Shown piece by piece: positions 13,739 through 38,828 of a stretch of 64,000 bases of DNA (its first letter is position 1; every line of letters starts with the position of its first letter). The notes beneath the pieces are model-generated. The model was given only the letters and a program-made list of their open reading frames with translations, was not told the origin of the DNA and did not search any database. The position numbers were made by a program, and so were the translations under genes. The DNA comes from an uncultured Chloroflexia bacterium (GTDB taxonomy: Bacteria; Chloroflexota; Anaerolineae; Anaerolineales; E44-bin32), in NCBI GenBank assembly GCA_963789825.1, contig CAWBME010000005.1, positions 257,239 to 321,238 on the forward strand, read 5' to 3'.

Positions 13739-14650
13739 ATGCCCCACCGAGAACTGCCCGAAGCCGAGTCCGGATTCACCCACGTCGCAGGTCTGCGCAT
13801 CCACGAACTGCACTGGCGGGCGGCGCGCTCCACGGCGCCGATCATCTTGCTGCACGGTCTGGCCTCCAACGCCCGCATCTGGGAGCTGTGCGCGCCGCGC
13901 CTGGCGGCGGCTGGCTTCGACACCTGGGCGATCGACTTGCGAGGACATGGCCTGAGCGGAAAGCCGGCGCGGGGCTACTCCTTCCCGGCGATCCGGGCCG
14001 ACCTCGAGCGCTGGATCCGCGCGCGTCGGCTGCGGCACCCGCTCCTCGTCGGTCACTCGTGGGGTGCCTACCTGGCGATCGACTATGCACGGCGCGATCC
14101 AGCGGGGCCGGCGCGGCCGCGTGGGCTGGTGCTGGTCGACGGCGGGATGAGCCAGATGGCGGACATCCCCGGCGCCAGTTGGTCTTCCGTACGACGGCGG
14201 CTTGCGCCGCCGCGCCTGGCGGGATTGACGGTTGAGCAGCTGCACCAGCGGCTGACCGCGCCCGGCCGAGCCTGGACCCCCACTGTGCGTGCCCTGCAGA
14301 TCGTGATGGGCAACTTCCATGTGGACAGTCGAGGCAGGATCCGGCCCCATCTGACCCGCCCGCGCCACTTGCAGCTGTTGCGCACGATTTGGGACTACCG
14401 CGCGTATCGGGCCTACCGGGAGCTTGCCTGCCCGGTGCTCCTGCTGCCGGCTGTGCCGCCCTCGCCACGCACATCCGCCGAGGACCGGTATCTGGAGGAG
14501 AAGCACAGGGGCGTCGCAATCGCCCGCAGGGAAATCGGCGAGGTGCGGGTGCACTGGATGCGCGACACGATCCACGACGTCCCGCTGCAGCGGCCGAACG
14601 CCCTGGCCAATCAGATCCTCCGCTTTGCCGGGGAGTTGGATTCGAGTTGA
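13739..14650 (+). CDS. Alpha/beta hydrolase fold protein
   Basis: 303-aa ORF with ...PIILLHGLASNARIWE... and the nucleophile elbow ...LLVGHSWGAYLA.... Confidence 0.8.
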   Translation: MPHRELPEAESGFTHVAGLRIHELHWRAARSTAPIILLHGLASNARIWELCAPRLAAAGFDTWAIDLRGHGLSGKPARGYSFPAIRADLERWIRARRLRHPLLVGHSWGAYLAIDYARRDPAGPARPRGLVLVDGGMSQMADIPGASWSSVRRRLAPPRLAGLTVEQLHQRLTAPGRAWTPTVRALQIVMGNFHVDSRGRIRPHLTRPRHLQLLRTIWDYRAYRAYRELACPVLLLPAVPPSPRTSAEDRYLEEKHRGVAIARREIGEVRVHWMRDTIHDVPLQRPNALANQILRFAGELDSS

Positions 14651-14654
14651 ATTC

Positions 14655-15173
14655 GTGGCCGCAGCTTTGAGGTCTCATCCGCAGCATGGGGTCTACACGC
14701 TGCGCCCAGCGAGCGCCGGAGATCAAGCCGCCATCCGGCGGCTGGTGTACCAGGCGCGCATCAATCCGCGCGGGCTGGACTGGCGGCGCTTTGTGCTGGC
14801 GGTCGATGCCGGCCAGCGGATGGTCGGCTGCGGCCAGATCAAGCCGCATGGCGATGGAAGCCGGGAACTGGCATCGATTGCGGTGGACCCCGGCTGGCGG
14901 GAAGGCGGGGTGGCCAGCGCCATCATCGGGGACCTGATGCAGGCCGGCCCGCCGCTGTGGCTGGTCTGCCGCTCGCAGCTCACCCCCTTCTACGCCCGCT
15001 TCGGATTCCGCCCGGTCCTCCCGGAGGAGCCGACGCCGGGCCACTTCCGGCGGATGCTTCGCCTCGGCGGCTGGCTGAACCACTGGGTGCCGCCCGGTCA
15101 GGGTCCGTGCGTCATGGTCTGGGACGGGGCGGACTTACCCTCCAAGGCGGCCGCAGGGCTGCAAGCCGAATGA
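14655..15173 (+). CDS. GNAT family N-acetyltransferase (GTG start inferred)
   Basis: Only the C-terminal part of ORF 14424..15173 looks protein-like: ...VYTLRPASAGDQAAIRRLVYQARIN...ELASIAVDPGWREGGVASAIIGDLM...FYARFGF. I chose the in-frame GTG just after the upstream gene's stop. Confidence 0.55.
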   Translation: MAAALRSHPQHGVYTLRPASAGDQAAIRRLVYQARINPRGLDWRRFVLAVDAGQRMVGCGQIKPHGDGSRELASIAVDPGWREGGVASAIIGDLMQAGPPLWLVCRSQLTPFYARFGFRPVLPEEPTPGHFRRMLRLGGWLNHWVPPGQGPCVMVWDGADLPSKAAAGLQAE

Positions 15174-26861: not shown

Positions 26862-26974
26862 TGTCATCCCGAGGCTGGTCTTCGGCCGAGGGATCTGCTT
26901 GTGCGGTCGGCGAGGGCCAAGCAGATCCCTCGCTGCCCCTCCGCTGCGCTGCGGGGCGGGCGCTCGGGATGACA
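26862..26974. repeat. Third copy of the palindromic element
   Basis: TGTCATCCCGAGG...GAGGGATCTGCTTGTGCGG...GCAGATCCCTCGCTGC...GCGCTCGGGATGACA has the same arms as the copies at 22486 and 22655. Confidence 0.8.
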
Positions 26975-27240
26975 CAAACCCCATGTCACCGTGGCGGGGG
27001 GCGCTCGGGATGACACAAACCCCATGTCACCGTCGCAGGGCGGGCGCTCGGGATGACACAAACTCCATGTCACCGCTGGCGGGGCGGGCGCTCGGGATGA
27101 CACAAACCCCATGTCACCGCCGCAGGGCGGGCGCTCGGGATGACACAATCGCCAGGTCACCGTGGCGGAGCGGACGCTCGGGATGACAGAGGGTGCTGCG
27201 CTCGGGGTGACAGCGGGGGTGCGCTCGGGATGGCGGCGAG
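26960..27240. repeat. Tandem array: six units of 41-44 bp (GCGCTCGGGATGACACAAACCCCATGTCACCG + ~10 nt) followed by two shorter ~23-bp units
   Basis: Unit starts read at 26960, 27001, 27044, 27088, 27131, 27174, 27198 and 27221. Each unit can fold as GATGACA...TGTCACC. The array ends about 150 bp before the gyrA start. Confidence 0.85.
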
Positions 27241-27392
27241 GTGACATGCTCGGGGGACAAGGGCACGCTGTGCTTGGGAGGGCCGAAGGAAGCGGAGATG
27301 TCCGCCAACGTACCCCGAATCCCGGTCCCCGGGGTATAATTCCATTTCGGCCGCGGTCCCCCCGAGTCCCGCACAACGAGTTGACATAAGAG

Positions 27393-29875
27393 ATGGAAAT
27401 CGGCACTGTCCAACAGGTCGATATCGACGAGCAGATGCGTGGGGCGTACCTCGACTACGCCATGAGCGTGATCGTGGCGCGCGCCCTGCCGGACGCCCGC
27501 GACGGCCTCAAGCCGGTTCACCGCCGCATCCTGTACGCCATGCACGACATGGGGATCCGCTCGAACACGCCCCACCGCAAGTCGGCCCGCATCGTGGGCG
27601 AGGTGCTCGGCAAGTACCACCCGCATGGGGACGTGGCGGTGTACGACACCATGGCCCGCCTGGCGCAGGACTTCTCGATGCGCTACCTGCTGATCGACGG
27701 CCAGGGCAATTTCGGCTCGATCGATGGCGACCCGCCGGCGGCCATGCGTTACACCGAGGCCCGCCTCAATCGCCAGGCGGAAGAATTGCTGCTCGATATC
27801 GACAAGGAGACGGTTGATTTCGTCGACAATTTCGACGCCTCCCTGCAGGAGCCGACGGTGCTGCCCGCCCGCCTGCCCAATCTACTGCTCAACGGAACCA
27901 CGGGCATCGCCGTCGGAATGGCCACCAACATCCCGCCGCACAACTTGCGCGAGCTGGCCAGCGCCATTCGCTTCCTGGTCGATGAATACGAGCGGATGGA
28001 CGAGATCGGCGTCGAAGACCTGATGCGGCATGTGCCCGGGCCGGACTTTCCCACCGGCGGCACGATCATCGGCATCGAGGGCATCAAGCAGGCCTACAGC
28101 ACCGGCAAGGGGCGCCTGGTCTTGCGAGCCACTGCCCACATCGAGGAGATGTCGGGCGGCCGCCACCGCATCGTGATCACCGAAATCCCCTACCAGATCA
28201 ACAAGACCGGGCTGATCGAACGGATTGCCGAGCTGGCGCGCGATGGCAGGCTCGACGACATCTCGGATCTGCGGGATGAGTTCGATCGGCGTGGCATGAG
28301 CCTGATCGTCGAGCTGCGTCGCGGAGCGCAGCCGAAGAAGGTCCTGAACAAGCTTTTCAAGTACACCCCGCTGCAGACGACCTACGGCGTGCAGATGCTG
28401 GCCCTGGTCGACGGCGAGCCGCGGGTGCTTTCGCTCAAGCGCGCCCTGCAGGTCTACATCGAGCACCGCCGGGCGGTGATCACCCGCCGCTCGCAGTTTG
28501 AACTTAGGAAGGCCCAGGCCCGGGCCCACATCCTGGATGGCCTGCTGATCGCCCTGGCCAACATCGACGCCGTCATCGAGACCATCCGCAAGTCGAAGGA
28601 CAGCGAAGCCGCCAAGGCCCGCCTGATGGAGCGCTTCTCGCTCAGCGAGCTCCAGGCGGTGGCCATCCTCGACATGCAGCTGCGCCGTCTGGCGGCGCTC
28701 GAGCGCGAGAAGATCGAGACGCGAACACAAAGAAGTTCTCAAGCGCATCGCCCAGCTGGAGGACCTGCTGGCGCATCCCAAGAAGCTACTGGGGGTCATC
28801 AAGGAAGACCTGAGCCAGGTGGAGGCTAGCCTACGGCGACGATCGCCGCTCGAAGATCGCCATCGACGCCTCGGAGGAGCTGCGCGAGGAAGACCTGGTG
28901 GCCGACGAGGCGGTGCTGGTCAGCATCACCGAGCGCGGCTACGTCAAGCGGGTGGCGGCGACGGCCTATCGACGCCAAGGCCGTGGCGGGCGCGGTGTCA
29001 TGGGTCACTCGATGCGCGGCGAAGATGAAGTGATGATGCTCTTCCCGGCGCGCTCGCTCGATACGGTGCTGTTCTTCTCCGATCGCGGCAAGGTGTACTC
29101 GGAGAAGGCCTACCAGATCCCGGACGCCAGCCGGACGGACCGCGGCGTGTCAATGGTCAACATCCTGGCGGTCGAGGCGGACGAGACGATCACCGCCACG
29201 GTGACCGTGCCCAACTTCGAGAGCGCCAACTACTGCACCATGGTCACGCGCAAGGGCAAGATCAAGCGCGTGCAGCTCTCCGAGTTCGCCGCCGTCCGGC
29301 CGTCGGGGTTGATCGCCATCTCGCTCGACAAGGGCGACGAACTCGGCTGGGTCAGGCTGACCAGCGGCAAGAACGAGATCATCCTGGTCACCGAGGCCGG
29401 CCAGGCGCTGCGCTTCCACGAGAAACTGGTGCGCCCGATGGGGCGCCCGGCTGCCGGCATGCGCGCCATCGCCCTGCGCGCCAAGGATCAGGTGGCCAGC
29501 ATGGACGTTGTCGAGGCCAAGGGGGATTTGCTGGTTGTGACCAAGAAAGGCTATGGCAAGCGCACGCCCCTCAAGGAGTACACCCCCAAGGGACGGGCTA
29601 CCAGCGGCGTGCTGACGCTGAGCAAAGAGAAGATGAGCCTCACCGGGCGGATCGCCGCCGCGCGTGTGGTGCACGCCGAGGACGACCTGACGATCATCTC
29701 CAGCGGCGGGATCATGCTGCGCACCAAGGTCGGCCAGGTGAAGCAGGCCGGGCGGGCGACGATGGGCGTGCGCGTGGTCGACCTGAAGGACAAGGACGAG
29801 GTGGGCTCGGTGGCCATCATCTCGGCCAAGGACCTCGAAGCGGCGGGGGTCGAGCAGAACGGGGCCGGCGGCTGA
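27393..29875 (+). CDS. gyrA: DNA gyrase subunit A; two apparent frameshifts near 28720 and 28830
   Basis: ...[32 protein letters not shown]...MRYTEARL.... The three frames join as ...LEREKIE / [36 protein letters not shown] / [26 protein letters not shown]..., followed by C-terminal beta-pinwheel repeats. Confidence 0.92.
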
Positions 29876-29991
29876 CGGGGCGAGCCCGGTCTGGTTTGCC
29901 CGCTCGTCCGGGGCTTGGGGGAGTGGCCCCGCACACCCGAGTCCCTGCCAGTCCCAGATGCCTACACCCACGCTAGAGTGCCCCATCCGTT

Positions 29992-30007
29992 TGTGACGTC
30001 CATCACG
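29992..30007. promoter_or_regulatory. CRP/FNR-family-like palindrome TGTGA-N6-TCACG upstream of the cytochrome operon
   Basis: TGTGACGTCCATCACG matches 9 of 10 positions of TGTGA-N6-TCACA. It lies about 170 bp upstream of ATG 30175, and a GATAAT box sits at 30053-30058. Confidence 0.3.
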
Positions 30008-30174
30008 AGGAGCGGGTGACATCCTTCTCTCCCCTTCGGCACATGCCCAAGCGATAATCCCAGAGAATAGTGGTATTCGCTTATGCGGATGAAAGCTGGT
30101 CCCTGAGCACGGGTGGGCGGCTTCATGAGCCGCCGCATCTGCCAGCGAAGTTCCGCCTCAAGGGAGACAAGCGC

Positions 30175-31634
30175 ATGCGACGTCGCTACGTGTGGATCCT
30201 GGGGCTTGCCGTCACCCTGGCGTTGATCCTCATCCCGATCGCCATCTTCTTCCCCCGCGCGGAGCCGGCGCGCGATGACCCGGCGGCAGCGCTCACGGTG
30301 CGCAAGCCGCCGACCGACCATCAGCCGCTGATGACCGGCCCTTACACCACCGGCGAAGACGTGACGCGCGCCTGCCTGGAATGCCATGCCGACGAAGCCG
30401 ACGAAGTGATGCAGACCGTTCATTGGACCTGGGAGAGCAAGCCCTACCCGATTCCCGGCCACGATGAGCTGGTGACGATCGGCAAGAAGAACAGCCTCAA
30501 CAACTTCTGCATCGGCATCCAGTCCAACTGGGCCGGATGCACCTCCTGCCACGCCGGCTACGGCTGGGAAGATGCCGACTTCGACTTCGGCGACAGCGAG
30601 AAGGTCGACTGCCTGGTGTGCCATGACAACACCGGCACCTACCTGAAGGGACAGGCAGGACTGCCGGCTGAGGGCGTCGACCTGGCCTACGTGGCGCAGA
30701 GCGTCACCTGCCCGACCCGGGAGAACTGCGGCTCGTGCCACTTCTCCGGGGGCGGCGGCAACGCCGTCAAACACGGCGACCTCGATCAGCACCTGATCTA
30801 CCCGACCGAGAACCTGGACGTGCACATGGGCGGCCAGGACATGCTGTGCACCGACTGCCACCAGACCGAGGATCACCAGATCCGCGGCCGGGCGATCTCG
30901 GTCAGCTTCGACCAGGAGAACCAGGCGCATGTGCACGGATTGCCACAGCCAGGCGCCGCATGAGGACGACCGCATCAACACCCACCTGGCCAGCGTCGCT
31001 TGCCAGACCTGCCACGTCCCGGCTGGCGGCACAGGCGATCCGACCAAGATGACCTGGGACTGGTCGACCGCCGGACAAGATCGGCCGGAGGACGAGCACG
31101 AGTATCTGAAGATCAAGGGCTCGTTCTTCTACGAAGAGCGACTTCACGCCGGAGTACTTACTGGTACAACGGCATCTCCGATCGCTATATCCTGGGAGAT
31201 ACGTTTGATCCAAGTCAGCCGCTCAACATGAACCCGCTGGCCGGCGATATCAATGACCCGGACGCCCGCATCTTCCCCTTCAAGGTGCATCGGGCCAAGC
31301 AGCCGTACGACACGCGTCTACAACTACCTGCTCCAGCCCAAGACCTTCGGCGAGGGCGGGTTCTGGACGGAGTTCGACTGGGACCAGGCGCTCCGGATGG
31401 GCTCCGAGGCCGTCGGCCTACCCTTCAGTGGGGAGTACGGCTTCGCCGAGACCGAGATGTACTGGCCGCTGACGCACACCGTCGCACCGGCCGGACAAGG
31501 CACTGCTGTGCGCCGACTGCCATTCACCGGAGGGGCGGCTCGACTGGCAGGCGCTCGGCTATCCCGGTGACCCGATGGAATGGGGCGTGCGGAGTCCGGC
31601 CGCTCCAGGCGAGACCGCGCAGGTGACACCATGA
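30175..31634 (+). CDS. Membrane-anchored octaheme c-type cytochrome, tetrathionate reductase (Otr) family-like; four apparent frameshifts (near 30925, 31148, 31315, 31495)
   Basis: N-terminal TM segment (RRRYVWILGLAVTLALILIPIAIFF). Eight CxxCH motifs: CLECH, CTSCH, CLVCH, CGSCH, CTDCH, CTDCH, CQTCH, CADCH. Blocks such as TVHWTWES and IGKKNSLNNFCIGIQSNWAGCTSCH recall the Otr family from memory. AGGGAG RBS; the stop overlaps the next start (ATGA). Confidence 0.7.
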
Positions 31635-34385
31635 TCTTGCGCGGCAGGCTCCTCCATCCGATCTTCGGCGTGCTCGTCTTCGTCGGGCTGCTGCTGATCG
31701 TCGGCGGCCTCCAGGCGTTGGACGCCTCCGCTGCGCTGAGCTTCAAGCCCGCCGCAGCAGACCTCTCCCCTTCACCCCGATGTGGCGCTGTTGGATGCGG
31801 ATGGCGTGAATGTGTTGGAGAGCGGCAAGCCCGTCTCCACGATGCGCACCTGTGGCGAGTGCCACGACACCGAGTTCATCGCCGCCCATTCCGGCCATTC
31901 GCAGGCTGGCCTCGATAGCTTGGCGCCCGCCGGGGAAACCTCGACCGGGCGTCCCTGGGACATGAGCGAGGGGATCTTCGGGAAGTGGGACCCGATGGTC
32001 TATCGCGTGCTGTCCGAGAGCGGCGGCGCGGAGCTCGACCTAGGGACGGCCGGCTGGGTCCAGACCATCGGGGCCCGCCACGTCGGCGGGGGGCCGGCGG
32101 CGCTCAGCCGCGACGGCACGCCCCTGCAGGAACTGCCAGTCCGCTCCGACGATCCCGAAACCAGCTGGCTCGACCCCGAAAGCGGACAGGTGCGGGCTTG
32201 GGATTGGGAGCAGTCCGGCGTCGTCGAGATGAATTGCTTCCTGTGCCATACGGCCGAGCCCGACAATGCGGCGCGCATCGAGGCCCTGCAGCAGGGTTCC
32301 TTCGGCTGGGCCAACACGGCCACGCTGCTGGCAACCGGCCTGGTCGACCGCACAGGCGATACCTATCGCTGGAACCCATCGGCCTTCGCCGAAGACGGGA
32401 CGGTCACCGCCGCCCAGCTGGCGATCCAGGACCCGGTCAACGAGAACTGCGGTCAGTGCCACGGGCTGGTGCACGATGAGGGCGACGACCCGATTGTAGC
32501 GGTCAGTTGCGACCCGGCGATTCGCCGCACGGTGACCACCGGCCAGATCATCGCCCCCGAGCGGCTCTCTGACTCGGGGATGAACCTGGTCGGCAAGGAA
32601 GACCTAACCCGGCCGTGGGACATCCATGCCGAGCGCCGGGTGGAGTGCACCGACTGCCACTACTCGCTCAACAACCCGGTCTACTTCCAGGAGGCCGAGA
32701 GCGCCCGCCCGGAGCACCTGACCTTCGACCCGCGCCGTCTCGAACTGGGTGAGTACCTGTACCAGCCGTTGCACGATCTGGCGCGTGGGCCAAGCCTCAG
32801 CGATCCAGTGACGCCGGAACAGGCCGGCTCGATGCGCCGCTGCGACTCTTGTCACAGCATCGAGTCCACCCATGACTGGTTGCCCTACAAGGACCGCCAC
32901 CTGGCAGCCTTGAGCTGCGAGACCTGCCACGTGCCGGATATGTACTCCAACGCCGCCCGGCAGGTCGACTGGACCGTGCTGCGCCCTGACAGCTTCGCCC
33001 GCGGCATCTGCCGTGGCACAGACACCACAGTTGGCGGACAGCCGGTCATCACCGGCTTCCAGCCGGTGTGGATGCCGCGCCAGGAACCGGATGGCAGCGC
33101 CCCGCTGACCCCCTACAACCTGGTGACGACCTGGTTCTGGGTTGCCGGCGATCCTGAGCAGCCGGTTCGCCTGACCGAACTGGAGGGCGCCTGGTTCGTG
33201 GGCGATGCCTATGCCCCGGAAGTGATTGCCGCCCTGGATGCGGATGGGGACGGAGCGCTGGCGGACGTGGAACTGCAGCTGGACACGCCGGAGAAGGTGG
33301 AGCTGATCGCCGGTCGCCTGGCGGCACTCGGGGTGGAGAACCCGCGGATCACCGGCGAGATCCAACCCTTCGGCATTCACCACACCATCGCCAGCGATGA
33401 GTGGGCGATCCAGGACTGCCAGGACTGCCACAGTGACCAGTCACGCCTCACCCAGTCCTTCGACCTCGCCGCGTACGTGCCTCCCGGCGCCGAAGCGGCG
33501 TTTGTTGGCGGTTCGACCGCCATCACCTCGGGCGAGATCGTGGCCGCCTCCGACGGCGGGTTGGTGTATCAGCCCGACACCGGGTCGCGCCAGTTGTATG
33601 TTCTGGGACACGACCGTGCCGAGTGGGTCGACTGGCTGGGCGGGCTGCTCTTCGTCGGTGTGCTGATCGGGATCGTGATCCATGGCGGCTTGCGCGTGGT
33701 TTCGGCGATGCGCCACCGCGGGGCTGCCGCCGAACCGGCCACCGAGACCGTGCGCATGTACGGTGTCTACGAACGCCTGTGGCACTGGCTTCAGACCTTC
33801 GCCATCGTGGCGCTGCTCTTCACCGGCCTGGTGATCCACCGTCCCGACAGCTTCGGCATGTTCAGCTTCCGCGGCGTTGTTCTGGTCCACAACATCCTGG
33901 CGGCGATCCTGGTGGTGAACGCCGGCCTGTCGCTCTTCTATCACCTGACCAGCGGGGAGATCCGCCAGTTCGTCCCGCGCCCGGTCGGCTTCTTTGACCA
34001 GGCCATGCTGCAGGCCAAGTACTACCTGAAGGGCATCTTCCGCAATGAACCGCATCCGTTCGAGAAGACGCCGGGCAGGAAGCTCAACCCGCTGCAGCAG
34101 GTGACCTACTTCGGGATCCTCAACGTACTGCTGCCGCTGATGATCCTGACCGGCATCCTGATGTGGGGCGCGCAACGCTGGCCGGAGTACTCGGCCTTGA
34201 TCGGCGGACTAACCGTCCTCGGCCCGGTGCACGCCGGCGTCGCCTGGATGCTGGCGGCTTTCATTGTCGGGCACGTCTATCTGACCACCACTGGGCCCAA
34301 GCCCTTGAGCAGCCTGCAGGGAATGATGTTCGGCACAGAGGCAGTCGAGAAGGGTCCTCTGGAGACCCAGGGAGGGAAGGCATGA
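31631..34385 (+). CDS. Heptaheme cytochrome c fused to a C-terminal di-heme cytochrome b membrane domain (PhsC / FdnI / Ni-Fe hydrogenase cyt b family-like); one apparent frameshift near 31778
   Basis: Signal anchor MILRGRLLHPIFGVLVFVGLLLIVGG. Seven CxxCH motifs: CGECH, CFLCH, CGQCH, CTDCH, CDSCH, CETCH, CQDCH. A C-terminal domain of about 230 aa has 4-5 TM helices and four spaced His (RLWHW, LVHNIL, GPVHAG, IVGHVYL). Confidence 0.75.
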
Positions 34386-34957
34386 CCACAAGCTCCGAGA
34401 TCGGGACGGCCCCGAAGCGAGGACTCCTGCACGCGCTCACCGGCCGGCCGGAAAGGCCATATGCCAATTCCTACGCCGCCGGTGCGTTGCTGGGGATCGT
34501 GCTGTTCCTGTCGTTCTTCATCACCGGCAACGGCCTGGGCGCTTCCGGTGGGTTGAACCGGATGATCGTCTTCGTCGAAGACCTGATCGCGCCGGCCCAC
34601 ATCGACCGCACGCCCTACCTGATCGAGATGGCGGGCGGGGTGCGCAACGCCCTCGATAGCTGGGTGGTGTTCGTCGCCCTGGGGGCGCTGGTTGGCGGCT
34701 TTGCCTCTGGTTGGTTCAACGGTCGGCTGAAGGCGGAGACCAAGAAGGGGCCGCGCATTTCGGTGCGCACCCGCTGGGCGACGGCTTTCGTCGGCGGAGC
34801 GATCATGGGCTATGGCGCCCGCTTCGCCCGCGGTTGCACCTCCGGCCAGGCGCTATCCGGCGGAGCGACGCTCTCTGTCGGAAGTTGGGCGCTGATGTTC
34901 TGCATCTTCGGCAGCGCCTACGCCCTGGCGTACTTTGTGCGCCGTTTGTGGACATAG
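34382..34957 (+). CDS. YeeE/YedE family sulfur-compound transporter half-protein
   Basis: The ATG overlaps the upstream stop. Multi-TM with ...FITGNGLGASGG... and ...GYGARFARGCTSGQALSGG... (sulphur-transport repeat with a conserved Cys). Confidence 0.8.
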   Translation: MTTSSEIGTAPKRGLLHALTGRPERPYANSYAAGALLGIVLFLSFFITGNGLGASGGLNRMIVFVEDLIAPAHIDRTPYLIEMAGGVRNALDSWVVFVALGALVGGFASGWFNGRLKAETKKGPRISVRTRWATAFVGGAIMGYGARFARGCTSGQALSGGATLSVGSWALMFCIFGSAYALAYFVRRLWT

Positions 34958-34967
34958 GGAGGTCAGT

Positions 34968-36197
34968 ATGCCGCCGTTTCCGCTCCACCTCGAGTCCCTG
35001 GTCGGCCAGTACGGCAGCTACCTGGTCTTCTTGCTGATCGGTATCGCCTTCGGCTATGCGTTGGAGATTGCCGGCTTCGGCAACTCCATCAAGCTGGCCA
35101 ACCAGTTCTACCTGAAAGACATGACCGTGCTCAAAGTGATGTTCACGGCGATCGTCGTGGCCATGGTGCTGATTTTCGGTGCCAGTGCCCTCGGCTTGCT
35201 GGACGTCAACCTGATCTGGGTCAATCCCACCTACCTGATCCCGGGGCTCGTCGGCGGCCTGATCATGGGCGTTGGCTTCATCGTCGGCGGCTTCTGCCCC
35301 GGCACCTCGGTGGTGGCAATGGCCACCTGGAAGATCGACGGCCTGTTCTATGTGCTGGGCACGCTGTTCGGCATCTTCCTGTTCGGTGAGACCGTCGACA
35401 ACTTCAGCGCCTTCTGGAACTCGACCTACATGGGCCGGTTGATGCTGCCCGAATGGCTGGGCGTGGATACCGGCGTGGTCGTGGTGGGCGTCGTGCTGAT
35501 GGCGATCGGTATGTTCGCCGGCGCCGAGCAGCTGGAGCGCATCTTTGGCAAGAAGGACCTGAAGGCCGAGCCGCGCCGGCGTTTCGTCGGCGCCGGGGCA
35601 CTGGTCGGGTTGGCGGTGGTGGTTGCGCTGATCGGTCAGCCGACCACCAAAGACCGCTGGCAGGCCGTATCCAGCGTCAAGGAAGCGGCGCTTGCCGAGC
35701 GGCAGGTCCAGATCGAGCCCGGGGAGCTGCTGAACCTGCTGCACGACCACGAGCTCAAGCCGATGCTGCTCGATGTGCGCGACGAGGCAGACTACAACCT
35801 GTTCCATCTCGAACGGGCGATGCACGTGACGCCGGAGATGTTGCCCGAGCGGCTGGAGGAGTTCCAGCTCGAGGGCCCGACGACGGTGTTCGTGGTGATG
35901 AGCAATGATGAGCAGGCGGCAACAGAAGTATGGAAGACGCTGGTGGCCGAGAGTGTGCCCAACGTCTACGTCCTCTCGGGCGGCGTCAACGGCTGGCTCG
36001 ACACCTTTGCCGCCGAGGATGAGCGCATCCAGCCGGCGGAGCCCGGCGCGCCGGACGCGCTGCGCTACACCTTCGCCGCGGCGCTGGGCTCAACCTACCC
36101 GGCCGCCGATCCGAACCCCGGGGAGTATGCGTTGGAGTACCCGACGAAGATCAAGCTAGAACTGAAGCGCGGCCCGACCGGCGGCGGCTGCGGTTGA
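34968..36197 (+). CDS. YeeE/YedE family transporter half fused to a rhodanese-homology domain; C-terminal GGGCG tail
   Basis: GGGAGG RBS. ...IMGVGFIVGGFCPGTSVV... belongs to the membrane domain. The rhodanese-like region (...MLLDVRDEADYNLFHLERAMHV...VFVVMSNDEQAATEVW...VLSGGVNGW) has Ser where the catalytic Cys is expected. The protein ends ...KIKLELKRGPTGGGCG. Confidence 0.75.
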   Translation: MPPFPLHLESLVGQYGSYLVFLLIGIAFGYALEIAGFGNSIKLANQFYLKDMTVLKVMFTAIVVAMVLIFGASALGLLDVNLIWVNPTYLIPGLVGGLIMGVGFIVGGFCPGTSVVAMATWKIDGLFYVLGTLFGIFLFGETVDNFSAFWNSTYMGRLMLPEWLGVDTGVVVVGVVLMAIGMFAGAEQLERIFGKKDLKAEPRRRFVGAGALVGLAVVVALIGQPTTKDRWQAVSSVKEAALAERQVQIEPGELLNLLHDHELKPMLLDVRDEADYNLFHLERAMHVTPEMLPERLEEFQLEGPTTVFVVMSNDEQAATEVWKTLVAESVPNVYVLSGGVNGWLDTFAAEDERIQPAEPGAPDALRYTFAAALGSTYPAADPNPGEYALEYPTKIKLELKRGPTGGGCG

Positions 36198-36235
36198 AAC
36201 CGCCAGACTGAGGCCGATCCCTGCGCCTCTGCCGA

Positions 36236-36278
36236 GCGACCCGCCAGGTCAAGGTGCGAACCGAGACCGGCGGGTCGC
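36236..36278. terminator. Hairpin between convergent genes (possible terminator)
   Basis: GCGACCCGCC ... GGCGGGTCGC forms a 10-bp stem with a 23-nt loop, followed by TGCGTTTGG. Confidence 0.35.
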
Positions 36279-36342
36279 TGCGTTTGGATCAAGACCCATA
36301 GCGGTGGCGGCGGTGAGGGAGTCCTCGCTGACCAGGGTTCGT

Positions 36343-37161
36343 TCAAGCCCGCTGCAACGTGCCGCCCAGCCACACGGCGCGTTCAACCTCGGCGCCACTT
36401 GGCAACAAGCGCGGCAGCAACCCCGCCAGGCGCTGCGGGTCACCGGTGGTGAATAGCCGGGGCGGGCCGGGCTGACCTCGGACTGCCGTCAGGCGGCGCT
36501 CAGTGAGCAGTCGGGCCGCCTGGCGGGCAACGGCCGGCGAGGGGTCGATCACTTGAACGCCCGGTCCGGCCAGTTCCTCAATCAGCGGGATCACGAATGG
36601 GTAGTGGGTGCAGCCGAGCACCAGCGTGTCGACGCCGCGCGCCAGCAAAGGCGCAAGGCCGCGCTGCACAATCGCTCGCGTCTCCGGCCCATCGAAATCG
36701 CCGGCCTCGATGCGCTCGACCAGGCCGGGGAGGGTCTGGGGGATCACTTCGACGCCGCCGGCGAAGCGCTCGACGACCGAGGCGAACAGCTCGCCCTGGA
36801 AGGTGGCCGGCGTGGCCAGCACGCCCACCACCTTGCTGCGGGTGGTCGCCGCCGCCGGCTTGACGGCAGGTTCCATCCCCACAAAGGGGACTTCCGGGAA
36901 GGTCCGGCGCAAGTGCTGCAGCGCGGCGGCGGAGGCCGTGTTGCAGGCCACGACGATCAGCTTGGCGGCGTGATCCAGCAGGAAGCGGGTGATGCCCTCG
37001 GAGAAGGCCTGGACCTGCTCAAGGGGCCTGGGACCGTAGGGGACATGCGCCTGATCGGCGAGGTAGACGACAGACTCATCCGGCAGGGTGCTGCGGATCT
37101 GACGCAACACCGAGAGCCCGCCGAGGCCTGAATCAAACACGCCGATGGGGGATTCGCGCAT
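36343..37161 (-). CDS. murI: Glutamate racemase
   Basis: MRESPIGVFDSGLGGLSVL..., ...VVACNTASAAAL..., ...LGCTHYPF.... Confidence 0.92.
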   Translation of the reverse strand: MRESPIGVFDSGLGGLSVLRQIRSTLPDESVVYLADQAHVPYGPRPLEQVQAFSEGITRFLLDHAAKLIVVACNTASAAALQHLRRTFPEVPFVGMEPAVKPAAATTRSKVVGVLATPATFQGELFASVVERFAGGVEVIPQTLPGLVERIEAGDFDGPETRAIVQRGLAPLLARGVDTLVLGCTHYPFVIPLIEELAGPGVQVIDPSPAVARQAARLLTERRLTAVRGQPGPPRLFTTGDPQRLAGLLPRLLPSGAEVERAVWLGGTLQRA

Positions 37162-37195
37162 GGCCGTCGATGCTGGACCCGGGTCGGACCGGCGG

Positions 37196-37924
37196 CTAGC
37201 CCGCCGCGCCCCGGGCTGCGGCGATCAAGCCGGTGAATAGGGCTGCCGAGCGATCTTCCGCCGGCATCCGCTCGGGGTGCCATTGTACTCCGAGGTAATG
37301 GGGATGGCCCTCCAACTCCGCCGCCTCAATCACGCCGTCGGGCGCGAAGGCCGTAGGTCGCAGTCCGGATCCAGGCAGGTCGATCGCCTGGTGATGGGCG
37401 CTGTTGACCTGCAGGATCGTGGCACCGAGGCAGGCCGTCAGCGCACTGCCGTCGGTGACGGTCACTGCATGGACCGGCTGCTCGGAGGGTTGATCGTCCG
37501 CATCGTGACGGATGGGACCGGGGCGCTGGCTGGGCAGGTCTTGGAACAGCGTGCCGCCGGCGGCGACGTTGATCAGCTGCAGGCCGCGGCAGATCGCCAG
37601 CAGCGGGCTGCCCTCGTCCGCCGCCCAGCGGGCAAGCTGCAGTTCGGTCTCGTCCCGGGCGGCATCCAGGCTGTGCAGGCCGTCGATGGGCGTCTGGCCA
37701 TAGCGCTGCGGCGAGACATCGCCGCCTCCGGTCAGCAGCAGCCCGTCTAGCCGCTGATAGAGCACGCGCAGCGTATCGCCGAGGAGGCCATAGGGGATCA
37801 ACAGCGGCAGGCCACCGGCGCGTTCAACCGCTCGCACGTAGGCCTGGATGCGGTCGGCGAGTGGACCCGAGGACTTGCTCGTAGGCAGCGTTGTGGTCAG
37901 GCCGATCAGTGGTGCCTGAAGCAT
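37196..37924 (-). CDS. Class I glutamine amidotransferase, peptidase C26 / gamma-glutamyl-GABA hydrolase (PuuD)-like
   Basis: Only the last 242 aa of ORF 37196..38746 are protein-like: MLQAPLIGLT...LLAICRGLQLINVAAGGTL...VNSAHHQAI...LGVQWHPE. Confidence 0.8.
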   Translation of the reverse strand: MLQAPLIGLTTTLPTSKSSGPLADRIQAYVRAVERAGGLPLLIPYGLLGDTLRVLYQRLDGLLLTGGGDVSPQRYGQTPIDGLHSLDAARDETELQLARWAADEGSPLLAICRGLQLINVAAGGTLFQDLPSQRPGPIRHDADDQPSEQPVHAVTVTDGSALTACLGATILQVNSAHHQAIDLPGSGLRPTAFAPDGVIEAAELEGHPHYLGVQWHPERMPAEDRSAALFTGLIAAARGAAG

Positions 37925-37950
37925 CTCGCCTCGCTCGCCCGAAACAAGAA

Positions 37951-37975
37951 GCGGGTTCGGGCTTGACCCGAACCC
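37951..37975 (-). terminator. Intrinsic terminator downstream of rplS
   Basis: The minus-strand RNA CGGGUUCGGG-UCAAG-CCCGAACCCG forms a 10-bp stem, followed by CUUCUUGUUUCGGG. Confidence 0.6.
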
Positions 37976-38040
37976 GACACATGTCGAGCTTGGAACTGTT
38001 GCGCGGCGCGGATCCGACACGCTGTCCGCCGCGCTCGTAG

Positions 38041-38391
38041 CTAGGCCTTGCGCTTCTCGGTCAGCCGTGCTCGCTTGCCCGTGCGGCCGCGCAGGTAGTA
38101 CAGCTGCGCCCGGCGCACGCGTGCCTGGCGTTGAACCTCGACCTTTTCGATGCGCGGCGAGCGAAGCAGAAAGGTGCGCTCGACGCCGATGCCATGCGAG
38201 GCGGTGCGGCGGACGGTGAAGTTGGCGTTGTTGCCGCCGTTGCGCAGGCGGATCACCGTGCCGCGGAACTCCTGGATGCGCTCGCGGTCGCCTTCCTTGA
38301 TCCGGACATGCACGTTGACCGTGTCGCCAGGGTTGAGCTGGGGGATGTTGGGATTGGCCGCAGCTTCCACGGCTCTCAACGTTTCCTGCAT
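38041..38391 (-). CDS. rplS: 50S ribosomal protein L19
   Basis: [86 protein letters not shown].... Confidence 0.93.
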
Positions 38392-38422
38392 GATGACCCA
38401 TCCTTGCCTGAGGGCAAACGAC

Positions 38423-38486
38423 CGCCGCCCCACGCTTCCGGGCGGCGCAGGCAGGCATTTTACCACGGTCTGGGCACCCCTGTCCA
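38423..38486 (-). promoter_or_regulatory. Putative sigma-70-type promoter plus 5' leader hairpin of rplS
   Basis: On the minus strand, TGGACA (38481-38486) is followed by an 18-nt spacer and TG-n-TAAAAT (the -10 box at 38457-38462). Downstream is an 8-bp leader hairpin CGCCGCCC/GGGCGGCG (38423-38447). Confidence 0.35.
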
Positions 38487-38828
38487 TGCCGCGCGGAGTT
38501 CAGCCGGCGGGTGCGCCCCTGCGGGCAGGAAGGGCTCCACGCAGGGGAACCCCCACCCCCGCCCCCCGCACTCCCCCTGTCCGGGGGTGCGTTCCCAGGG
38601 GCTCGAGGTTCGTCACTGGGGAGGGTTGATGGGGGCTGTGGGCGGGGCTGCCTCGGCGACCCAGCTTCCCTGCACGGGCCTGGCCGGCCTTGACCAGGCG
38701 CCGAAGCTCGGTGAAGCGAGGTTCGGGCACCGCCGTTGAGCGCCATACGGGATGGAGCCGATGGGGCGGTGACAATGCTCAGGCTCCGGTTCTGAGGGGG
38801 TGAGGCAATGCCCAGGCGGGGGCCGCCG

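What the first reader, a model, noticed from the sequence alone, without database searches (positions are those of the whole stretch)
30175..36197. Four-gene operon: octaheme Otr-like cytochrome + heptaheme-cytochrome b fusion + split YeeE/YedE transporter with rhodanese domain - candidate novel sulfur-compound respiration/uptake module
Four same-strand genes are tightly coupled. Two junctions are ATGA overlaps (31631-31634 and 34382-34385), and the last gene starts 10 nt after the previous stop with its own GGGAGG RBS. Together they encode 15 CxxCH heme c sites, a four-His di-heme b membrane domain and both halves of a YeeE/YedE-type channel. Established knowledge: Otr-family octaheme cytochromes reduce tetrathionate (and nitrite or hydroxylamine) in vitro. 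PhsC/FdnI-type cytochromes b are quinol-interacting anchors. YeeE/YedE proteins transport thiosulfate or related sulfur species. Inference: quinol is oxidised by the cyt b domain, electrons pass along a 7 + 8 heme wire on the outer face of the membrane to an Otr-type active site, and the thiosulfate product is imported through the co-encoded YeeE pair. I do not know of a described system with this gene combination. Caveat: the Otr-like gene carries four frame disruptions in the assembly.
Basis: partly seen in the sequence, partly recalled or inferred. Interest (0 to 1): 0.8.

Follow-up and report, generated by a model that had tools for sequence, protein, structure and literature searches.

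The report
Conserved Anaerolineae Otr–quinol–sulfur-channel gene cassette
Four tightly linked genes found together in hundreds of Anaerolineae genomes appear to wire membrane quinol to an outward-facing Otr-type octaheme reductase sitting beside a split sulfur channel, whose outside domain ends in a SoxY-like cysteine tail; this gives a testable clue to what Otr enzymes do in cells.

Summary
Window 30175-36197 (+) carries four coupled genes:
- g1: an octaheme cytochrome that scores as Otr family once repaired (TIGR04315, 576 bits against a cut-off of 375). The heme-2 lysine and the active-site cysteine are conserved.
- g2: a 917-aa protein with seven CxxCH motifs fused to a PhsC/FdnI-type cytochrome b.
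- g3 and g4: a split PmpAB/YeeE-type channel.

The frame breaks are five single-base insertions in g1 and one in g2. They belong to a patch of eight insertions in 3 kb that also breaks the essential gyrA. g1 has dN/dS 0.057, so this is an assembly error, not a pseudogene.

The cassette is not a one-off. All 67 of the 80 related genome loci with enough sequence hold g1-g2-g3-g4 in the same order, and 60 of 72 have an ArsR-type regulator upstream.

The rhodanese domain of g4 lacks its catalytic cysteine. It ends in an invariant GGCG tail and is predicted to face outwards.

The most likely function is quinol-driven reduction of an oxidised sulfur compound outside the cell, coupled to uptake of the product. 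Substrate and direction are inferred, not shown. I found no paper that describes this cassette. I rate it a new variant of a known kind.

The parts
30162..30166 (+). Shine-Dalgarno-like GGGAG, 8 nt before the g1 ATG
   Evidence: Read directly from the sequence.
30175..31634 (+). g1: Otr-family octaheme cytochrome c. It is 484 aa after removal of five inserted bases and has an N-terminal membrane anchor (residues 8-26).
   Evidence: Eight CxxCH motifs. TIGR04315 576 bits against a cut-off of 375. Shewanella Otr structure 1SP3, E = 1.7e-153. Lys104 (1SP3 Lys56) and Cys112 (Cys64) are invariant in 75 homologues. dN/dS against L004 is 0.057.
30929..31754 (+). Six window-specific single-base insertions at 30929, 31137, 31160, 31315, about 31495-31498 and 31754. 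They break g1 five times and g2 once.
   Evidence: Alignments to L001 and L004, both short-read assemblies with intact genes. They belong to a patch of eight insertions that starts in gyrA at 28722 and 28825.
31631..33608 (+). g2, N-terminal part: signal anchor plus an extracytoplasmic heptaheme c domain (residues 1 to about 659).
   Evidence: Seven invariant CxxCH motifs plus invariant non-motif histidines. hhalign matches residues 258-607 to Otr-family residues 170-455 at 97% probability. The Otr heme-2/lysine region is not matched.
33609..34385 (+). g2, C-terminal part: one extra transmembrane helix with invariant His684, then a four-helix cytochrome b domain of the PhsC/FdnI/HydC type.
   Evidence: PF01292 88.7 bits. 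NF011582 (PhsC) 125 bits, below its cut-off of 204. His718, His753, His867 and His881 are invariant in transmembrane helices.
34382..34957 (+). g3: PmpA-like half of a YeeE/YedE channel (191 aa), equivalent to the C-terminal half of YeeE.
   Evidence: PF04143 66.9 bits, profile positions 176-308. The RGCTSGQ cysteine (Cys152) is invariant in 76 homologues and corresponds to YeeE Cys293 (PMC7449682, PMC11582611).
34957..34962 (+). GGGAGG ribosome-binding site for g4. It overlaps the last base of the g3 stop codon and lies 5 nt before the ATG.
   Evidence: Read directly from the sequence.
34968..35639 (+). g4, N-terminal part: PmpB-like half channel (equivalent to YeeE H1-H7) plus one extra transmembrane helix (residues 1-224).
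   Evidence: PF04143 48.7 bits, profile positions 9-199. The GGFCPG cysteine (Cys110, equivalent to YeeE Cys91) is invariant. Helix pattern in the AF2 model. Loop charges alternate as expected.
35640..36182 (+). g4: rhodanese-homology domain without a catalytic cysteine (invariant Met-Ser-x-Asp in its place), predicted to be extracytoplasmic.
   Evidence: PF00581 51.4 bits. Foldseek matches single-domain rhodaneses, including Sud and YgaP. Conservation of the active-site loop. Topology evidence.
36183..36197 (+). g4 C-terminal GGCG tail and stop codon; a flexible arm carrying one invariant cysteine.
   Evidence: 68 of 68 complete homologues end in GGCG or GGCGG. pLDDT is 34 for residues 401-409. 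The same tail is found on stand-alone anchored relatives.

Best explanation
The four genes encode a self-contained membrane complex of Anaerolineae that reduces an oxidised or sulfane sulfur compound on the outer face of the membrane and takes up the sulfur product.

- Electron input: menaquinol is oxidised at the di-heme cytochrome b domain of g2.
- Electron path: electrons cross the membrane and run along the seven bis-His-type hemes c of g2 into the membrane-anchored Otr-type octaheme enzyme g1. There, the lysine-ligated heme 2 with its neighbouring cysteine reduces the substrate.
- Substrate: most likely tetrathionate or a related thiosulfonate or polysulfide species.
- Product uptake: g3 and the N-terminal part of g4 form a PmpAB-type (split YeeE) channel that carries the product, most likely thiosulfate, into the cell.
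- Substrate handling: the g4 rhodanese-like domain sits outside next to the channel mouth. Its flexible GGCG tail probably binds or presents the sulfur species.

Shown here: family memberships, conserved catalytic and channel residues, invariant gene linkage, purifying selection.
Inferred: topology, electron direction, substrate, product, and the role of the tail.
For: - g1 is a bona fide Otr-family member, with the heme-2 lysine and the active-site cysteine conserved.
- g2 has seven invariant CxxCH motifs, several invariant extra histidines, and a PF01292/PhsC-like b domain with four invariant transmembrane histidines.
- The g2 heme domain is a distant paralogue of Otr hemes 4-8 only, without the catalytic part. 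That fits a wire rather than an enzyme.
- g3 and g4 keep the two cysteines that are essential in YeeE (PMC7449682, PMC11582611).
- Start and stop codons overlap or are 10 nt apart.
- g1-g2-g3-g4 is present in 67 of 67 testable loci. 537 stretches among 185,579 species genomes encode a g2 relative.
- dN/dS is 0.06-0.12 for all four genes.
- The rhodanese domain is placed outside by three lines of evidence. YeeE is N-out, and g4 has H1-H7 plus one extra helix. The positive-inside pattern holds over 69 homologues. Stand-alone relatives have an N-terminal signal anchor.
- Upstream regulators are sulfur- or metal-type ArsR proteins with an invariant His14/Cys18.
- Precedents exist: a Geobacter multiheme polysulfide reductase (PMC13510729), Dethiobacter octaheme + rhodanese clusters induced on thiosulfate (PMC10376724), and the Wolinella Sud rhodanese that serves Psr (fold match).
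Against: - No experiment bears on substrate or direction.
- Shewanella Otr also reduces nitrite and hydroxylamine in vitro (cited in PMC7887784 and PMC13510729), so family membership does not fix the substrate.
- g3 and g4 score far below the TsuA thiosulfate-transporter cut-offs (34 against 400; 16 against 645).
- The g2 b domain is below the PhsC equivalog cut-off (125 against 204).
- The AF2 model of g2 is poor (pLDDT 52), so the heme wire is not modelled.
- Topology is predicted, not measured.
- In this window the ArsR gene is absent and g1 is interrupted in the assembly.
Confidence: 0.5

Rival explanations
1. A nitrogen-oxide module. The Otr-type enzyme works in vivo as a quinol-dependent nitrite, hydroxylamine or NO reductase (ammonification or detoxification). 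The YeeE-like pair has an accessory or unrelated transport role.
For: Otr reduces nitrite and hydroxylamine in vitro (Atkinson et al. 2007, as cited in PMC7887784; PMC13510729 notes its promiscuity). The lysine-ligated catalytic heme resembles that of NrfA (family knowledge). Quinol-dehydrogenase partners are normal for such reductases.
Against: Invariant linkage in 67 of 67 loci to a channel of the sulfur-transport family with both essential cysteines, and to a rhodanese-like domain with a cysteine tail. No nitrogen-metabolism gene recurs in the flanks.
Confidence: 0.12
2. A selenium or tellurium oxyanion reduction and uptake system. The multiheme enzyme reduces selenite outside the cell, and the YedE-like channel with its cysteine-tailed domain takes up or traps the selenium.
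For: g3 weakly matches the YedE/FdhT selenium model (26.8 bits). Sec-containing forms of both YeeE/YedE (GUxSG) and TIGR04315 proteins are listed in PMC13188914. Geobacter MccSep also reduces selenite, and the rhodanese-like ExtH is tied to selenite (PMC13510729). The regulators are ArsR-family metalloid-type.
Against: All selenium-model scores are far below cut-off (26.8 against 350). No selD, selA or yedF genes were seen in the flanks. The TsuA model scores slightly better than the YedE model.
Confidence: 0.1
3. An extracellular electron-transfer conduit. g2 acts like Geobacter CbcBA, passing menaquinol electrons to an outward multiheme protein (g1) that reduces metals or other external acceptors.
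For: g2 has the CbcA (seven hemes, C-terminal helix with His) plus CbcB (di-heme b annotated as 'thiosulfate reductase-like') architecture. Joshi et al. note cbcB-cbcA fusions in Chloroflexi as possible markers of extracellular respiration.
Against: g1 keeps the Otr catalytic lysine and cysteine and is 55-60% identical to a soluble-substrate enzyme. This reading gives the invariantly linked channel and rhodanese-tail domain no role. Homology to GSU0593/0594 was not tested by sequence here.
Confidence: 0.08
4. The oxidative direction. Thiosulfate or sulfide is oxidised at g1, SoxXA-like, onto the GGCG cysteine, and electrons flow into the quinone pool through g2.
For: The GGCG tail resembles the SoxY GGCGG arm, which accepts thiosulfate oxidatively (family knowledge). 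Multiheme wires are reversible in principle.
Against: The tetrathionate/thiosulfate couple (about +0.2 V, established value) cannot reduce menaquinone (about -0.07 V). No SoxZ, SoxB or SoxAX genes are in the cassette or flanks. The characterised Otr enzyme works reductively.
Confidence: 0.07
5. In this particular organism g1 (and so the module) is a decaying pseudogene.
For: Five frameshifts in 1.46 kb of g1 and one in g2 in the assembly.
Against: The same kind of single-base insertion breaks the essential gyrA twice, 1.3-1.5 kb upstream of g1, and removing the two bases restores an 826-aa ORF. All eight lie in one 3-kb patch, with none in the next 4.4 kb. After repair g1 has no stop codons and dN/dS of 0.057, or 0.020 downstream of the first shift.
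Confidence: 0.04

Closest known systems
Octaheme tetrathionate reductase Otr of Shewanella oneidensis (PDB 1SP3; TIGR04315)
   Same: g1 aligns over the whole mature protein (E = 1.7e-153). It has eight CxxCH motifs, the heme-2 lysine and the neighbouring cysteine, and passes the family cut-off.
   Different: g1 is membrane-anchored, in a phylum usually regarded as single-membraned (background knowledge, not tested here). It is translationally coupled to its own quinol dehydrogenase, a sulfur channel and a cysteine-tailed domain. The physiological role of Shewanella Otr is itself unsettled.
Geobacter sulfurreducens CbcBA (GSU0593-0594) and CbcL quinol:cytochrome c oxidoreductases
   Same: A multiheme c domain outside the membrane plus a di-heme b of the HydC/FdnI/PhsC type. 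CbcA has seven hemes and a C-terminal helix that supplies a histidine, as the g2 arrangement suggests.
   Different: g2 is a single polypeptide, and its c domain is a paralogue of Otr hemes 4-8. Sequence homology to CbcA and CbcB was not tested. In Geobacter the partner is the extracellular electron-transfer chain, not an Otr enzyme.
YeeE/TsuA thiosulfate transporter and the split PmpA/PmpB proteins
   Same: g3 corresponds to the C-terminal half and g4 to the N-terminal half. The equivalents of Cys293 and Cys91 are invariant (PMC7449682, PMC11582611).
   Different: g4 keeps an H7-like helix and adds another helix and an outside rhodanese-like domain. Scores are far below the TsuA cut-offs. The partner is not the cytoplasmic YeeD/TusA.
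SoxY sulfur-carrier protein (C-terminal GGCGG swinging arm)
   Same: A flexible glycine-rich C-terminal tail with a single invariant cysteine on an extracytoplasmic protein.
   Different: The fold is unrelated (rhodanese-like, not the SoxY fold). There is no SoxZ partner and no Sox enzymes. Carrier function is only inferred from the motif.
Periplasmic rhodanese Sud of Wolinella succinogenes (polysulfide-sulfur transferase serving Psr)
   Same: An extracytoplasmic single-domain rhodanese fold associated with a respiratory sulfur reductase (Foldseek match to 1QXN).
   Different: Sud uses the canonical active-site cysteine. Here that position is an invariant Met-Ser, and the only conserved cysteine is in the tail.

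Membership tests
Otr family octaheme cytochrome c (TIGR04315) | Whole-protein score above the curated cut-off of 375 bits | tested here: met
   576.1 bits, profile positions 2-440 of 440, after removal of five inserted bases. The unrepaired fragments score 270 + 87 + 56 + 70 bits.
Otr family octaheme cytochrome c (TIGR04315) | Eight CxxCH heme-binding motifs | tested here: met
   Motifs at residues 67, 122, 146, 185, 225, 253, 276 and 444. All are invariant in alignment A3.
Otr family octaheme cytochrome c (TIGR04315) | Lysine ligand of the catalytic heme 2 (Lys56 of 1SP3) and the nearby cysteine (Cys64) | tested here: met
   GKKNSLNNFC aligns with GKKNSINNFC of 1SP3. Lys104 and Cys112 are invariant in 75 and 18 homologues. 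The residue roles come from my recollection of Mowat et al. 2004.
Otr family octaheme cytochrome c (TIGR04315) | Tetrathionate reductase activity | not testable with these tools
   Needs an enzyme assay.
PhsC / Ni_hydr_CYTB di-heme cytochrome b (PF01292; NF011582) | Pfam domain above the gathering score | tested here: met
   88.7 bits against 30.1, residues 660-850 of the 867-aa fragment.
PhsC / Ni_hydr_CYTB di-heme cytochrome b (PF01292; NF011582) | Four transmembrane histidines for two hemes b | tested here: met
   His718, His753, His867 and His881 are invariant and lie in predicted helices. His684 is an additional invariant histidine in the extra helix.
PhsC / Ni_hydr_CYTB di-heme cytochrome b (PF01292; NF011582) | PhsC equivalog score, and a PhsAB molybdoenzyme partner | tested here: not met
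   125.4 bits against a cut-off of 204. No molybdopterin subunit is in the cassette. It is therefore PhsC-like, not PhsC.
CbcBA-type quinol:cytochrome c oxidoreductase (Geobacter) | Seven-heme c subunit with a C-terminal helix carrying a histidine, plus a di-heme b subunit | tested here: met
   Architecture only: 7 CxxCH motifs, a helix with invariant His684, then the b domain, compared with the description in 10.1101/2021.04.15.440034.
CbcBA-type quinol:cytochrome c oxidoreductase (Geobacter) | Sequence homology to GSU0593/GSU0594 | not tested
YeeE/YedE sulfur transport family (PF04143), split PmpAB type | Pfam domain above the gathering score in both halves | tested here: met
   g3 66.9 bits and g4 48.7 bits against 27. 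They match complementary halves of the profile.
YeeE/YedE sulfur transport family (PF04143), split PmpAB type | Conserved cysteines equivalent to YeeE Cys91 and Cys293 | tested here: met
   g4 Cys110 (GGFCPG) and g3 Cys152 (RGCTSGQ) are invariant. The mapping follows PMC11582611.
YeeE/YedE sulfur transport family (PF04143), split PmpAB type | TsuA thiosulfate-transporter equivalog score | tested here: not met
   34 bits against 400 (NF052577) and 16 bits against 645 (NF041049).
Rhodanese sulfurtransferase (PF00581) | Rhodanese fold | tested here: met
   51.4 bits against 22.2. The AF2 domain has pLDDT 80-90, and Foldseek matches single-domain rhodaneses.
Rhodanese sulfurtransferase (PF00581) | Catalytic cysteine in the active-site loop | tested here: not met
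   The position is Met311-Ser312. Ser312 is invariant and Met311 is kept in at least 97% of the close homologues, with Asn313/Glu315 invariant and Asp314 nearly so. The wider family has [SG]N[DG]E there. I placed the loop by eye against GlpE.
SoxY-type covalent sulfur carrier | C-terminal GGCGG-like cysteine arm | tested here: met
   GGCG or GGCGG in 68 of 68 complete homologues, and in 81 of 84 full-length representatives. The tail is disordered in the model.
SoxY-type covalent sulfur carrier | SoxY fold with a SoxZ partner | tested here: not met
   The fold is rhodanese-like, and no SoxZ-like gene is in the cassette or flanks. This is an analogy, not membership.

The most novel reading that the evidence does not exclude
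The membrane-anchored, outward-facing rhodanese-like domain with the invariant GGCG tail is a previously unrecognised SoxY-like covalent sulfur carrier. On this reading, the physiological substrate of Otr-type octaheme enzymes in these bacteria is not free tetrathionate. It is the carrier-bound cysteine thiosulfonate or persulfide, which Otr cleaves reductively at the mouth of the split YeeE channel so that the released sulfur anion is taken up directly.
Probability: 0.22. Interest if true: 0.8.

Novelty: new variant of a known kind. Interest (0 to 1): 0.6.

Why it matters
Metagenomic surveys routinely count otr as a 'tetrathionate reduction' gene, yet the in-vivo role and partners of Otr are unsettled. 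Here an Otr orthologue is locked, in every one of the 67 testable loci from Chloroflexota MAGs (mostly Anaerolineae), to three things: a dedicated quinol dehydrogenase, a sulfur-family channel, and an outside domain with a carrier-like cysteine tail.

That yields concrete and cheap tests. Examples are adduct mass spectrometry on the tail, reductase assays with and without the domain, and transport assays.

It also defines a rhodanese-derived family of about 500 clusters at 50% identity, for which I found no published description. Anaerolineae are abundant in sediments, digesters and activated sludge, so a real sulfur-intermediate sink in them would change sulfur-cycle budgets.

Tried and rejected
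- AF2 model of g2: mean pLDDT 52, with the heme domain at 25-45. Too poor for a fold search, so none was run.
- PDB sequence search with g2 gave only a marginal FdnI hit.
- The promoter and terminator scan of 29800-36500 found nothing above shuffled expectation.
- The second-best NCBIfam hit of the ArsR regulator, 'TsoR', turned out to belong to a 'three selenoprotein operon' and scores well below cut-off (62 against 115). I dropped it as a functional clue.
- The BigR and SqrR models are also below cut-off. The regulator has one invariant cysteine, not the two I recall for BigR/SqrR.
- No ArsR homologue exists anywhere in the 64-kb window.
- Clustering 506 flanking ORFs found no further conserved partner. 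Response regulators occur in 16 loci, LysR in 12, NrfD-like proteins in 7 and multiheme proteins in 6.
- No second copy of the rhodanese-tail domain was found in the window. Among the loci, only L047 shows a weak second match (14556-14660, E 1.4e-07).
- The genomic context of the stand-alone 210-aa relatives could not be looked up, because the tool does not accept them.
- The pseudogene reading was rejected (see the rival explanations).
Full report
**What is in the sequence**

Window 30175-36197 (+) holds four genes in a row.
- g1 runs from 30175 to 31634.
- g2 runs from 31631 to 34385.
- g3 runs from 34382 to 34957.
- g4 runs from 34968 to 36197.

The g1/g2 and g2/g3 junctions are ATGA overlaps. 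Ten bases separate g3 from g4, and GGGAGG lies at 34957-34962.

As assembled, g1 is split over three reading frames. The start of g2 is in a different frame from the rest of the gene.

**The frame breaks are assembly errors**

I aligned the region to two relatives from short-read assemblies. They are L001 (JGI contig, about 88% nucleotide identity) and L004 (JBFYRF010000071.1, Anaerolineales bacterium PPR_0206; 87.7% identity over window 27329-38490, with gyrA upstream as here).

Every break is one extra base in the window. The positions are 30929, 31137, 31160, 31315 and about 31495-98 in g1, and 31754 in g2.

Two more insertions of the same kind lie in gyrA, at 28722 and 28825. Removing them restores an uninterrupted 826-aa GyrA.

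All eight insertions fall within 3.03 kb. None occurs in the next 4.4 kb of the operon.

After repair g1 has no internal stop codon. Its dN/dS against L004 is 0.057, and 0.020 for the part downstream of the first shift. The values for g2, g3 and g4 are 0.115, 0.073 and 0.092.

An essential gene broken in the same way, together with strong purifying selection, points to a low-quality assembly patch rather than a pseudogene.

**The four proteins**

*g1 (484 aa after repair)*
- It has an N-terminal anchor and eight CxxCH motifs.
- It scores 576 bits on TIGR04315, whose cut-off is 375.
- It aligns end to end with Shewanella Otr, PDB 1SP3, at E = 1.7e-153.
- The lysine and cysteine that align with Lys56 and Cys64 of 1SP3 are invariant in 75 homologues. 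As I recall from Mowat et al. 2004, these are the heme-2 ligand and the active-site cysteine.

*g2 (917 aa)*
- It has an N-terminal anchor and seven CxxCH motifs, all invariant in 24 homologues.
- At least eight further histidines outside the motifs are invariant. That is enough for bis-His ligation of all seven hemes.
- One extra helix with invariant His684 follows.
- A PF01292 cytochrome b domain comes last (88.7 bits). His718, His753, His867 and His881 are invariant in its helices.
- Its best NCBIfam match is PhsC, but below the cut-off (125 against 204).
- A profile-profile comparison places g2 residues 258-607 on Otr-family residues 170-455 (97% probability, E = 1e-10). This covers Otr hemes 4-8 but not the catalytic N-terminal part.
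- The g2 heme domain therefore looks like an Otr-derived electron wire.
- The layout matches what Joshi, Chan and Bond describe for Geobacter CbcA + CbcB. CbcA has seven hemes and a C-terminal helix that supplies a histidine; CbcB is a di-heme b annotated as thiosulfate-reductase-like. [quoted passage not shown] I could not test that homology by sequence.

*g3 (191 aa) and the first 224 residues of g4*
- They match complementary halves of PF04143.
- The YeeE crystal structure paper and the Dahl-lab analysis of PmpA and PmpB guide the mapping.
- g3 corresponds to the C-terminal half; its invariant Cys152 maps to the essential Cys293.
- g4 corresponds to H1-H7; its invariant Cys110 maps to the essential Cys91.
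- Both score far below the TsuA equivalog cut-offs.

**The g4 C-terminal domain**

Residues 225-409 of g4 are a rhodanese-fold domain (PF00581, 51.4 bits). The AF2 model has pLDDT 80-90 there, and Foldseek matches single-domain rhodaneses including Sud and YgaP.

The position of the catalytic cysteine is an invariant Met-Ser.

The only conserved cysteine is in the C-terminal GGCG. This tail is present in 68 of 68 complete homologues and is disordered in the model (pLDDT 34).

Three lines of evidence place the domain outside the cell.
- YeeE is N-out. g4 has the H1-H7 helix pattern plus one extra helix, which brings the chain back out.
- Loop charges over 69 homologues alternate as the positive-inside rule expects. 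The loop before the last helix has 5.5 Lys+Arg, and the domain has net charge -16.
- A search of 1.84 billion representatives with the domain alone found 503 clusters in two architectures. One is about 400-450 aa fused to the half channel. The other is about 200-225 aa, with just an N-terminal Lys/Arg-plus-hydrophobic signal anchor in 45 of 52. The G-C-[GSA] ending is present in 32 of 32 and 49 of 52 respectively.

The tail resembles the GGCGG arm of SoxY. This is an analogy drawn from family knowledge; the fold differs.

**Conservation**

g2 has more than 2,000 database relatives at E ≤ 1e-5, and the 120 best are 54-61% identical over the full length. A scan of one genome per species (185,579 genomes) found 537 stretches that encode a relative.

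The best 80 loci are almost all from Chloroflexota MAGs. The labels include Anaerolineales, Promineifilaceae, Ardenticatenaceae, Caldilineaceae, Ca. Amarolinea aalborgensis and Ca. Desulfolinea nitratireducens. Two contigs carry other phylum labels.

In 67 of the 80 loci, g1, g2, g3 and g4 are all present in the same order. The other 13 are cut by contig ends exactly where the missing gene would be.

An ArsR/SmtB-type regulator with invariant His14 and Cys18 lies directly upstream in 60 of 72 loci. Other loci have HTH + PocR-like or XRE + cupin regulators instead. The window and its closest relative L004 have none adjacent.

No other neighbour recurs in more than 16 loci. The cassette is therefore self-contained.

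**Most likely mechanism**

Menaquinol is oxidised at the g2 b domain. Electrons then pass through two hemes b and seven hemes c to the eight hemes of g1, where the substrate is reduced at the lysine-ligated heme on the outer face.

The invariant coupling to a sulfur-family channel, and to an outside domain with a cysteine tail, argues that the substrate is a sulfur compound and that the product is imported. Tetrathionate giving thiosulfate is the simplest case, given the characterised Shewanella enzyme.

Thiols react with tetrathionate to give cysteine thiosulfonates (established chemistry). The tail could therefore capture the substrate and present it to g1.

There are precedents for multiheme cytochromes as sulfur reductases with rhodanese helpers. 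They are Geobacter MccSep, the Dethiobacter clusters and Wolinella Sud.

The oxidative direction is unlikely on potentials. The tetrathionate/thiosulfate couple is about +0.2 V and menaquinone about -0.07 V (established values).

All of this paragraph is inference. Nothing here tests substrate, direction or topology experimentally.

**Rival readings**

The rivals are nitrite/hydroxylamine reduction, selenium handling, extracellular electron transfer and sulfur oxidation. They are listed with their weights in the Rival explanations section.

**Novelty**

Full-text searches found three kinds of earlier mention, but no description of this cassette or of the tailed rhodanese family.
- Surveys that list otr in Anaerolineae bins.
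- An Otr + cytochrome b561 pair in an Ignavibacteria MAG.
- The passing remark on Chloroflexi cbc fusions.

The library lacks most subscription-journal papers, so this absence is not proof. Each part belongs to a known family. What is new is the fixed combination and the relocated cysteine on an outward-facing, catalytically disabled rhodanese. I therefore rate it a new variant of a known kind.

Noticed in passing
window 27393-29875 (+): gyrA is broken by two single-base insertions (28722 and 28825) relative to L004. Removing them gives an intact 826-aa ORF. Together with the six in g1 and g2 they form a 3-kb patch of insertion errors. Most of the inserted bases are A, and none is in a homopolymer run.
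   Followed up: yes
window 26947-27232: A tandem array just upstream of gyrA: a 43-nt unit, 5.5 copies, 89% matches, followed by a related 24-nt repeat. L004 has a shorter version, and the window carries an extra 41 nt at 26870. Function unknown.
   Followed up: partly
L002 2346-5099: In one relative (ENA contig_288) genes for DsrC-like, DsrE_2-like and Pyr_redox_2 proteins lie 1-4 kb upstream of the ArsR-cassette. This hints at a cytoplasmic sulfur relay, but it does not recur across loci.
   Followed up: partly
L027, L035, L048, L077 (about 800 nt upstream of g1); L045, L051, L057, L066: Where ArsR is missing, the gene directly upstream of g1 encodes one of two regulators. One is an HTH protein of about 250-270 aa with a Cys-rich, PocR-like C-terminal part. 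The other is an XRE-HTH + cupin protein of about 205-225 aa. The family names are from reading the sequences, not from a scan.
   Followed up: no
L064 2578-3807, L078 683-1708 and similar: In 6-7 loci an NrfD/PsrC-like membrane protein and another multiheme cytochrome lie 1.3-3.4 kb upstream of the cassette. This may be a second respiratory complex.
   Followed up: no
literature (PMC13188914): Selenocysteine-containing variants are listed both for TIGR04315 octaheme cytochromes and for YeeE/YedE proteins (GUxSG, the motif that is RGCTSGQ in g3). I did not check which Otr residue is replaced.
   Followed up: no
window 36343-37161 (-), 38041-38487 (-): By reading the translations, the downstream genes look like ordinary housekeeping genes (glutamate racemase MurI, ribosomal protein L19). 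They are syntenic with L004 and unrelated to the cassette.
   Followed up: no
L042, L058: Two cassette-bearing contigs are labelled Zixiibacteriota and Nitrosomonadaceae MAGs, although their proteins are 53-63% identical to the Anaerolineae ones. This is probably mis-binning rather than transfer.
   Followed up: no
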